Assembly (NCBI GenBank): GCA_044892525.1 | Contig: CM097885.1 | Span: 35,962,001 to 36,026,000, forward strand | Reading direction: 5' to 3' | From: Schmidtea polychroa | Lineage: Eukaryota | DNA length: 64,000 nucleotides | Shown: positions 42,847-43,361 of the stretch, piece after piece | Layout of the letters: every line of letters starts with the position of its first letter | How positions within the stretch are numbered: position 1 is the stretch's first letter | Notes under the pieces: generated by a model | Seen by the model: the letters and a program-made list of their open reading frames with translations, nothing else | Databases searched by the model: none | Told to the model about the DNA's origin: nothing | Program-made: the position numbers and the translations under genes

Positions 42847-43361
42847 TTATTTAAAAAAACGACATAAAACATATAAAATAGCAACACCTGTTGCAAGTTT
42901 TAAATAGTTTTTAAATTGGATTTTTTGCTGATCTAATTCTTTTGCATTTCTGGCGAGTCGATTCAGCACGCCCCATCCGCCATTGGCTTCAATCCATGGC
43001 TGAAACTTTGACTTGATTATCTAGAAAATATATATTAATAAAATATAGATTATAAAAGTATTACTTCTTGAGACCACTGATAATAGTGCTCAGAATCCAA
43101 TAGGCTTTTTTCAATTATTATCTTCATATAAGCGAACCCTACTAATATTCGGGTCCACTTCATCTCCTCGTCGCATAAGCAATTAAATATTCTATTAAAA
43201 TAGAATTTCTTTGTTTCGAGGGAATCGGAATTGAGGACGTCCTCATAATCAATGTGATTACCTTCTATAATCTTTTCGGTCCGATCGACCAGGAAAATTA
43301 GGCTTTCCATAATATTCTTGTTGATGAGTTCTCTGCACATATTTTCCATTAAATTAGACAT
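42847..43361 (-). CDS. Bcl-2 family protein (viral Bcl-2); exons 43361-43065 and 43020-42847; 156 aa
   Basis: BH1-like LCDEEMKWTRILVGFAY, BH2 FQPWIEANGGW and tail anchor LATGVAILYVLCRFFK, joined by a 44-nt phase-0 GT-AG intron. Confidence 0.85.

What the first reader, a model, noticed from the sequence alone, without database searches (positions are those of the whole stretch)
42847..43361. Hidden spliced Bcl-2 homologue with a tail anchor
The ORF track shows only a 103-aa orphan. Removing intron 43021-43064 adds IIKSKFQPWIEANGGWGVL...LATGVAILYVLCRFFK, a clear BH2 (WI..NGGW) and a basic-tipped transmembrane tail. BH1 is atypical (KWTR rather than NWGR), which could alter BH3-groove specificity. 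Inference: a captured anti-apoptotic gene, as in adenovirus E1B-19K and other viral Bcl-2 proteins.
Basis: partly seen in the sequence, partly recalled or inferred. Interest (0 to 1): 0.85.

Follow-up and report, generated by a model that had tools for sequence, protein, structure and literature searches.

The report
Spliced Bcl-2 gene in planarian Polinton
A virus-like jumping element with over a thousand copies in what is likely a planarian genome carries a two-part gene, predicted to be spliced, that likely descends from the host's own survival gene bcl2-1 and likely keeps the cell alive while the element copies itself; such cargo is already reported for these elements, but their genes are usually described as intron-free.

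Summary
A two-exon Bcl-2-like gene (99 + 57 codons, GT-AG gap 43021-43064) lies in a full-length 19.7-kb Polinton/Maverick with 99% identical terminal repeats and a 6-bp target duplication. GT-AG is kept in 106 of 106 copies examined while gap length varies 30-63 nt. Both exons are under purifying selection, at least 1,349 copies exist, and a sister Polinton family has an intronless version. The exons align back to back with planarian bcl2-1 and group with it (100/99). One correction: the odd BH1 is probably inherited, since bcl2-1, reported as essential, also lacks the glycine (WSR). The intron sits 16 codons upstream of the host intron, which suggests capture from mRNA and later intron gain; integrase and protease genes carry predicted introns too. 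Splicing, expression and anti-apoptotic activity are not shown: no RNA was examined. Bcl-2 cargo is already reported in adintoviruses and in planarian Burro retroelements, and this scan noted the same gene on another copy in this genome. Verdict: new variant of a known kind, moderate interest.

The parts
43065..43361 (-). Bcl-2-like gene, exon 1 (99 codons; helices 1-6, BH3 position, BH1)
   Evidence: Pfam Bcl-2 E 0.028; model pLDDT 90.7; top nine VIA-align rows are Bcl-2 folds, Z 8.8-7.2; dN/dS 0.01-0.51 in the 11 of 21 pairs where dS is not saturated
43021..43064 (-). Predicted phase-0 GT-AG intron, 44 nt, 16 codons upstream of the host-type GGW intron site
   Evidence: GT..AG in 106 of 106 copies, lengths 30-63; 1,349 exon-2 starts with AG against 9 with a non-G at -1, all 9 still holding the intron; same site in a decayed fifth family
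42847..43020 (-). Bcl-2-like gene, exon 2 (57 codons plus stop; BH2, linker, tail)
   Evidence: 29% identical over 55 ungapped residues to bcl2-1 residues 127-181; dN/dS 0.05-0.33
43149..43160 (-). BH1 core KWTR (Thr where Bcl-xL has Gly)
   Evidence: aligned to Bcl-xL NWGR; 101 of 106 copies; host bcl2-1 has RWSR
42973..42999 (-). BH2 (PWI..NGGW), not followed by the host-type intron
42853..42897 (-). Predicted C-terminal membrane anchor, short, basic tip
   Evidence: hydropathy; same layout as the bcl2-1 tail
25370..45106 (.). Full-length Polinton/Maverick element, 19,737 bp, with 6-bp target site duplication
   Evidence: identical terminal motifs and flanking duplication; core genes
25370..26667 (+). 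Left terminal inverted repeat
   Evidence: 1170 of 1179 aligned bases identical to the right repeat
43926..45106 (-). Right terminal inverted repeat
28054..32025 (-). Protein-primed DNA polymerase B, 1323 aa
   Evidence: 43-61% identical to the decayed copy at 3776-6645 that hits Pfam DNA_pol_B_2 at E 2e-12
35073..35455 (-). Adenain-like protease with a predicted 38-nt intron at 35413-35450 just after its ATG
   Evidence: Pfam Peptidase_C5 over cut-off; same ATG/donor/acceptor layout in 6 of 6 copies viewed from four subfamilies
35483..36703 (-). Likely major capsid protein, 406 aa
   Evidence: assigned by size and position; 77-84% identical in B and D copies; no diagnostic Pfam hit
38077..39171 (-). 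Retroviral-type integrase with chromodomain; predicted (ATT)n intron at 38703-38783
   Evidence: Pfam rve and Chromo; insert 42-306 nt in 27 of 30 loci measured, absent in two family D copies
39785..40411 (-). A32-like packaging ATPase
   Evidence: Pfam Pox_A32 over cut-off
40511..40948 (+). TBP-like gene of the accessory cluster
   Evidence: Pfam TBP E 1e-15
43473..43970 (+). 165-aa ORF head to head with the Bcl-2-like gene; hydrophobic N- and C-termini
   Evidence: 84% identical in family B; only weak Pfam hits under cut-off
26660..26986 (-). C3HC4 RING finger ORF near the left end
   Evidence: Pfam zf-C3HC4_3 over cut-off; no BIR domain detected

Best explanation
This is a two-exon Bcl-2-fold accessory gene of a high-copy Polinton/Maverick, likely captured from the planarian bcl2-1 lineage, predicted to be spliced into a 156-aa tail-anchored protein that likely blocks mitochondrial apoptosis in cells where the element is active. 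Shown: the element, the gene's anatomy, its conservation, purifying selection on both exons, grouping with bcl2-1, and the intron position. Inferred: capture through spliced mRNA (host GGW intron absent), later gain of a new intron in the element lineage (family D has none), transcription and splicing by the host nucleus, insertion in the mitochondrial or ER membrane, and binding of host pro-death Bcl-2 proteins so that a stem cell or its daughter survives linear-DNA replication and integrase breaks and passes on new insertions.
For: Element with 99% identical repeats and 6-bp duplication. At least 1,349 copies of exon 2. GT-AG in 106 of 106 copies. dN/dS well under 1 on both exons. Family profile hits Bcl-xL at E 9e-9. 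Intronless family D passes the Pfam cut-off (32.7 vs 31.4) and its model matches Bcl-xL (E 7e-5, TM 0.64-0.71). Tree: Polinton A/B/C and D, bcl2-1 and three unnamed proteins form one group, 100/99. Nearest host gene is single copy and 89% identical to ACW83059, which is Smed bcl2-1 (PMC4993586 supplement); bcl2-1 RNAi gives total lysis (PMC4993586 passage). No canonical killer BH3 core LxxxGD (motif recalled): LIFLVD in most copies. Bcl2 and IAP homologues are reported in adintoviruses (PMC8502044).
Against: No RNA evidence: no listed run is on record as RNA and no reads were laid. Protein databases gave only unspliced forms of this family. Identity to bcl2-1 is only 25%, enough for a change of function. 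BH1 has Thr, bulkier than the Ser of bcl2-1; PMC8998228 notes that Ser here alters BH3 selectivity in mouse Boo. The tail is short. Planarian Polintons are piRNA-repressed (PMC8532177), so most copies may be silent. The exon 1 model alone has no Foldseek match at E <= 0.001, and both models used alignments rich in Bcl-2 proteins, which favours that fold. The tree has long branches.
Confidence: 0.6

Rival explanations
1. The spliced protein is real but works outside apoptosis, using the Bcl-2 fold to block autophagy or innate signalling, as some herpes-, adeno- and poxviral Bcl-2 folds do.
For: Thr at the BH1 glycine; 25% identity to the host gene; viral Bcl-2 proteins binding Beclin-1 are reviewed in PMC7022251 (passages).
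Against: BH1 Trp/Arg, BH2 and the tail are all kept under selection, and the nearest host relative is an essential gene with the same kind of BH1.
Confidence: 0.17
2. The protein promotes death, as a decoy that titrates host bcl2-1 or as a pore former, helping particles leave the cell late in a lytic phase.
For: A blocked groove plus a tail anchor could give a dominant negative; the element has capsid-type, ATPase and protease genes.
Against: No canonical BH3 core; over a thousand heritable copies would be a heavy load; it groups with bcl2-1, not with the other host paralogues tested.
Confidence: 0.1
3. The intron is a switch: retention gives a soluble 103-aa form without BH2 or anchor, and splicing, limited to some cell types, gives the active form.
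For: Short intron with a non-ideal donor (GTAAT) and an in-frame stop four codons in.
Against: The read-through tail is not conserved: 4 residues in family A, 15-21 low-complexity residues in B and C, as expected of unselected intron sequence.
Confidence: 0.08
4. The gap is not spliced; exon 2 is a remnant of a broken gene or a separate small ORF.
For: No transcript seen; only unspliced proteins in databases.
Against: Exon 2 has no Met in family A and is under purifying selection; GT and AG are fixed while length varies; seamless alignment to bcl2-1 across the gap; intronless sister family.
Confidence: 0.05

Closest known systems
Schmidtea mediterranea bcl2-1 (ACW83059.1 / FJ807655.1) and its orthologue in this genome (L062, G000:C1:268.54 Mb)
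   Same: Bcl-2 fold, BH1 without the glycine, BH2, linker plus short basic-tipped tail; one tree group 100/99; best host hit by phmmer, E 1e-20.
   Different: 25% identity; 156 vs 184 aa, with a much shorter N-terminus and helix 1-2 loop; host gene is single copy with a ~3-kb intron after GGW; this gene is in over 1,300 copies with a 44-nt intron 16 codons upstream.
Bcl2 homologues of adintoviruses / animal Mavericks (Starrett et al. 2021, PMC8502044)
   Same: Bcl-2 cargo in an element with pPolB, integrase, A32/FtsK ATPase and adenain; Bcl2 appears 3 times in their supplementary maps.
   Different: No planarian element found by term search of their text and stored (truncated) supplement; no host donor or intron mentioned in the passages seen; sequence relationship to those proteins not tested.
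BCL2-like domain of planarian Burro giant Gypsy retroelements (PMC6431247)
   Same: A mobile element of the same kind of host carrying a Bcl-2-like domain; many such copies occur in this genome inside frames up to about 3,000 aa.
   Different: Part of a retroelement polyprotein, no intron there, no tail anchor at that point; not detected by phmmer from this protein; long branch in the quick tree.
Viral Bcl-2 proteins: adenovirus E1B-19K, poxvirus F1L/DPV022, ASFV A179L, KSHV Bcl-2
   Same: Compact Bcl-2 fold carried by a dsDNA virus-like genome; DPV022, A179L and F1L rank among the top fold matches of exon 1 (Z 8.8, 8.3, 7.8).
   Different: 8-14% identity in those fold matches; no Pfam match to E1B-19K or M11L families; independent origin inferred; activity of those is tested, of this one is not.
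Intact vertebrate Mavericks (Barreat and Katzourakis 2021, PMC8097293)
   Same: Core genes, terminal inverted repeats, 6-bp duplication.
   Different: Described as having no introns in intact elements; this element has three predicted ones. Introners in dinoflagellate polinton-like elements (PMC12166617) are a precedent of another kind.

Membership tests
Bcl-2 family (Pfam PF00452) | Score over the Pfam cut-off of 31.4 bits | tested here: inconclusive
   Window exons alone score 15.4 and 12.3. Relatives pass: family D 32.7; copies with in-frame introns up to 34.5 read through.
Bcl-2 family (Pfam PF00452) | Helical Bcl-2 fold around a central hydrophobic helix 5 | tested here: met
   Family D model vs Bcl-xL, E 7e-5, TM 0.64-0.71; exon 1 model, top nine VIA rows all Bcl-2 folds, Z 8.8-7.2, rmsd 2.0-4.3 over 84-92 residues, modest for a helical bundle; profile vs PDB E 9e-9.
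Bcl-2 family (Pfam PF00452) | BH2 motif W..NGGW | tested here: met
   Exon 2.
Bcl-2 family (Pfam PF00452) | C-terminal membrane anchor | tested here: inconclusive
   Hydropathy 1.94 over 15, 1.27 over 19 residues; aligns to the bcl2-1 tail; localisation untested.
Canonical NWGR-type pro-survival Bcl-2 (Bcl-2, Bcl-xL) | Glycine of the BH1 NWGR motif | tested here: not met
   KWTR in 101 of 106 copies; not filed in this subgroup. Host bcl2-1 also lacks it; WSR occurs in 11 of 115 database hits tallied.
Canonical NWGR-type pro-survival Bcl-2 (Bcl-2, Bcl-xL) | Binds BH3 of pro-death proteins and blocks cytochrome c release | not testable with these tools
   Needs bench assay.
Pro-apoptotic Bax/Bak/Bok type | BH3 core LxxxGD (motif recalled) | tested here: not met
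   LIFLVD in most copies; Gly never seen among the 106.
Planarian bcl2-1 clade | Groups with bcl2-1 to the exclusion of other host paralogues | tested here: met
   100/99 in a 22-row LG+G4 tree; grouping A/B/C with the NWGR-type host gene L054 rejected, p-AU 0.00016. Long branches; four host paralogues in this tree, eight in the quick tree.
Planarian bcl2-1 clade | Intron directly after the BH2 tryptophan | tested here: not met
   Present in 6 of 10 host-like loci including bcl2-1, absent in the four Polinton copies viewed and in the window copy; a gene-structure trait, expected to be lost on capture through mRNA.
Adenovirus E1B-19K family | Match to the Pfam E1B-19K model | tested here: not met
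   No hit at E <= 1 for either exon or at E <= 0.01 for family D; no E1B-19K sequence was in the trees.
Polinton/Maverick | pPolB, retroviral-type integrase, A32 ATPase, adenain protease | tested here: met
   pPolB through its relative at 3776-6645; the rve hit (26 bits, E 1e-5) is under cut-off.
Polinton/Maverick | [quoted passage not shown] | tested here: met
Polinton/Maverick | Double and single jelly-roll capsid proteins | tested here: inconclusive
   406-aa and 357-aa ORFs conserved in place but no diagnostic Pfam hit; not folded.
Polinton/Maverick | Intronless genes (a described trait of intact vertebrate elements, not part of the definition) | tested here: not met
   Three predicted GT-AG introns against PMC8097293.

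The most novel reading that the evidence does not exclude
Planarian Polintons are a spliceosome-dependent lineage that gains introns inside its own genes, one of them built from an (ATT)n run between duplicated splice sites, and their thousand-fold amplified bcl2-1 derivative is switched on when the elements wake during differentiation, so that a virus-like element sets part of the cell-death threshold in the stem-cell lineage of a regenerating animal.
Probability: 0.15. Interest if true: 0.8.

Novelty: new variant of a known kind. Interest (0 to 1): 0.47.

Why it matters
Bcl-2 cargo in Mavericks has been listed but, in the papers I could search, not traced to a donor or tested. Here the donor lineage is an essential, RNAi-tractable planarian gene, so the function of Maverick anti-death cargo becomes directly testable in a living animal. 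The intronless family D beside intron-bearing A, B, C and E, plus the integrase insert, gives a natural series for intron gain inside a virus-like element and implies reliance on host nuclear splicing. It also shows that ORF-only annotation misses or truncates these genes. The kind of cargo itself is not new.

Tried and rejected
Run search: no RNA holder listed; this says nothing on expression, and no reads were laid, so splicing stays open. Homodimer job on exon 1, prompted by the long fused helix 2-34 in the model and matches to helix-swapped structures: no verdict. No relative found in metagenome contigs for P0008 or exon 1 or in viral contigs for P0008; the context of P0007/P0008 is unknown. 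The alignment was too diverse for a locus scan. Search for an intronless copy of families A-C: none among the 9 copies with a non-G at -1; copies with other mismatches were not seen. Whether ABC and D are one capture or two is unresolved (p-AU 0.49). The careful 37-row tree did not finish; only the quick tree was seen. 'BH1 retuned by the element' rejected as the main reading because the host gene shares the loss of glycine. 'Host gene lying inside the element by chance' rejected: found among Polinton genes in all six element contexts fetched. AATAAA hexamers 30 and 42 nt after the stop are weak evidence in DNA this AT-rich. Not held and not read: Pellettieri 2010, Kapitonov and Jurka 2006, Koonin 2024. 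Atlas search of P0008 only confirmed Bcl-2 likeness.

Full report
Observation. The 103-aa ORF at 43050-43361 (-) exists. A 44-nt GT-AG gap at 43064-43021 separates its first 99 codons from a 57-codon frame ending at 42847. Each part alone hits only Pfam Bcl-2, weakly but in order.

Setting. The gene lies in a 19,737-bp element at 25370-45106 with a 6-bp target duplication and terminal repeats identical at 1170 of 1179 aligned bases. It encodes pPolB, integrase, A32 ATPase, adenain protease, likely capsid proteins, a TBP-like and a RING protein: a Polinton/Maverick. Of the 40 places scored with a 601-base probe, all were 98-100% identical, which points to recent spread. The host is inferred to be a Schmidtea-like planarian from a gene 89% identical to an S. 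mediterranea protein and from multicopy Bcl-2 domains in frames up to 3,000 aa that fit the published Burro elements.

Is the gap an intron? I compared 106 places: 31 and 60 picked across the identity range of the 150 listed. All 106 have GT..AG at the same codon boundary, with lengths 44 (93 copies), 45 (4), 48 (3) and 30, 42, 51, 54, 60, 63 (1 each); 10 of 106 carry a stop or frameshift in an exon. The sample leans to intact copies. Genome-wide, a degenerate exon-2 motif is preceded by AG 1,349 times and by a non-G 9 times; all 9 still hold the intron. Between seven natural copies, exon 2 dN/dS is 0.05-0.33 (21 pairs, not independent), exon 1 is 0.01-0.51 in 11 pairs and saturated in 10; the other frames of exon 2 have 2-7 stops. 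Against bcl2-1 the exons abut at residues 126/127. A decayed fifth family has a gap at the same site, and family D, also in Polintons next to the TBP-like gene, has an intronless 144-aa version. Against: no RNA was examined, and database searches gave only unspliced forms of this family.

Fold. A profile of the family matches 149 PDB sequences at E <= 1, led by Bcl-xL at 9e-9, and 117 library proteins at E <= 0.001. The family D model (pLDDT 88.6) matches Bcl-xL at E 7e-5. The exon 1 model (pLDDT 90.7) has no Foldseek match at E <= 0.001, though all listed rows are Bcl-2 proteins, and its top nine VIA rows are Bcl-2 folds, Z 8.8-7.2. Both alignments were rich in Bcl-2 proteins. The whole two-exon product was not folded.

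Origin. The closest host gene, L062, is single copy (next hit 48%, family D), has a GTGAGT donor right after GGW and its last exon about 3 kb on, and is the orthologue of ACW83059, listed as Smed bcl2-1 in a supplement of PMC4993586; that paper reports total lysis on bcl2-1 RNAi. In a 22-row tree the four Polinton proteins, bcl2-1, its orthologue and P0005, P0007, P0008 form one group at 100/99; order inside is open (p-AU 0.49 for Polinton monophyly) and long branches are flagged. bcl2-1 has WSR and family D WSK at BH1, so loss of the glycine probably predates capture. PMC8998228 describes the GGW exon boundary as conserved across animals and notes altered BH3 selectivity with Ser in Boo. Here 6 of 10 host-like loci have GT after the BH2 Trp and none is interrupted at the Polinton site; Polinton copies lack the GGW intron. 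Simplest reading (inference): capture from spliced mRNA, then gain of a new intron in the A/B/C/E lineage. Loss in D or two captures are not excluded.

Other introns. The integrase has an (ATT)n insert between two TTAG/GT sites at 38703-38783; it is 42-306 nt in 27 of 30 loci measured (3 not parsed), always a multiple of 3 and with stops in only 1, so read-through is not excluded by sequence; two family D copies lack it; its acceptor motif occurs 1,783 times. The protease frame has no ATG of its own; an ATG, a GTAAG donor and an AG acceptor precede it in 6 of 6 copies viewed from four subfamilies. Intact vertebrate Mavericks are described as intron-free (PMC8097293); introners are reported in dinoflagellate polinton-like elements (PMC12166617).

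Mechanism. Most likely (0.6): when the element escapes piRNA control, as planarian Polintons do on smedwi-2 loss and partly during differentiation (PMC8532177), the host transcribes and splices the gene; the protein inserts by its tail and holds pro-death Bcl-2 proteins in check, as the host bcl2-1 is thought to, so the cell survives replication and integration. A TATAAAT motif lies about 40 nt upstream of the ATG. All steps after the DNA anatomy are inferred. Rivals: non-apoptotic use of the fold (0.17), pro-death decoy (0.10), retention switch (0.08), no splicing (0.05).

What is in print. PMC8502044 states that Bcl2 and IAP homologues occur in adintoviruses (passage; supplement term hits, file cut when stored). 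PMC6431247 reports a BCL2-like motif in Burro (passages). Searches listed no paper on a planarian Polinton Bcl-2 or on spliced animal Maverick genes; subscription papers and Repbase were not searched, and the cut supplement may hold more. Seen as passages only: PMC6431247, PMC8502044, PMC8532177, PMC7022251, PMC8998228, PMC4993586 (plus supplement rows), PMC8097293, PMC12166617, PMC10748475, PMC4055413 (references).

Verdict. Real, well supported as a gene, untested as a function. The cargo type is known; the traced essential donor, the copy number and the introns make it a variant worth a bench test. Interest 0.47.

Noticed in passing
window 38703-38783: Integrase insert made of an (ATT)n run between two TTAG/GT sites, 42-306 nt across copies with 42 recurring (6 of 27), absent in family D: candidate intron born by duplication and microsatellite growth.
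   Followed up: partly
window 35413-35450: Predicted 38-nt intron right after the protease ATG, shared by four subfamilies.
   Followed up: partly
window 1-6700: Second, decayed and rearranged Polinton copy in the opposite orientation (about 85-92% identical in stretches), ending before its Bcl-2-like gene.
   Followed up: partly
window 7167-11196: Perfect 1,986-nt inverted repeat with a 58-nt spacer carrying GIY-YIG and RT pieces, Penelope-like.
   Followed up: no
window 49047-49340 (-): 97-aa ORF with a signal-like N-terminus, dibasic sites and a terminal Gly; looks like a neuropeptide precursor (CRF/ELH resemblance recalled; no Pfam support).
   Followed up: partly
window 43362-43472: 111-nt divergent promoter region between the Bcl-2-like gene and the 165-aa ORF, with TATAAAT on both sides; ATPase, basic-protein and capsid genes have TATAAACAAA instead.
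   Followed up: no
window 32200-34600: Tandem repeat arrays (98-107, 21 and 141 nt units) between pPolB and the protease, with acidic repetitive frames.
   Followed up: no
G000:C4:89.9-90.9 Mb (L051-L057): Seven near-identical NWGR-type Bcl-2 genes without the GGW intron, in a local array.
   Followed up: no
L085-L086 (G000:C1:203.69-203.70 Mb): Palindromic deleted Polinton with two inverted copies of the Bcl-2-like gene 8 kb apart.
   Followed up: no
P0007, P0008 (unnamed ENA/Logan proteins; P0008 cluster on contigs up to 13.7 kb): Bcl-2-like proteins that fall in the bcl2-1/Polinton group; may come from related elements in other hosts; context not obtained.
   Followed up: partly
window 12050-12967 and 56754-57008: Fragments of hAT-like transposases (weak Pfam hit for the second).
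   Followed up: no
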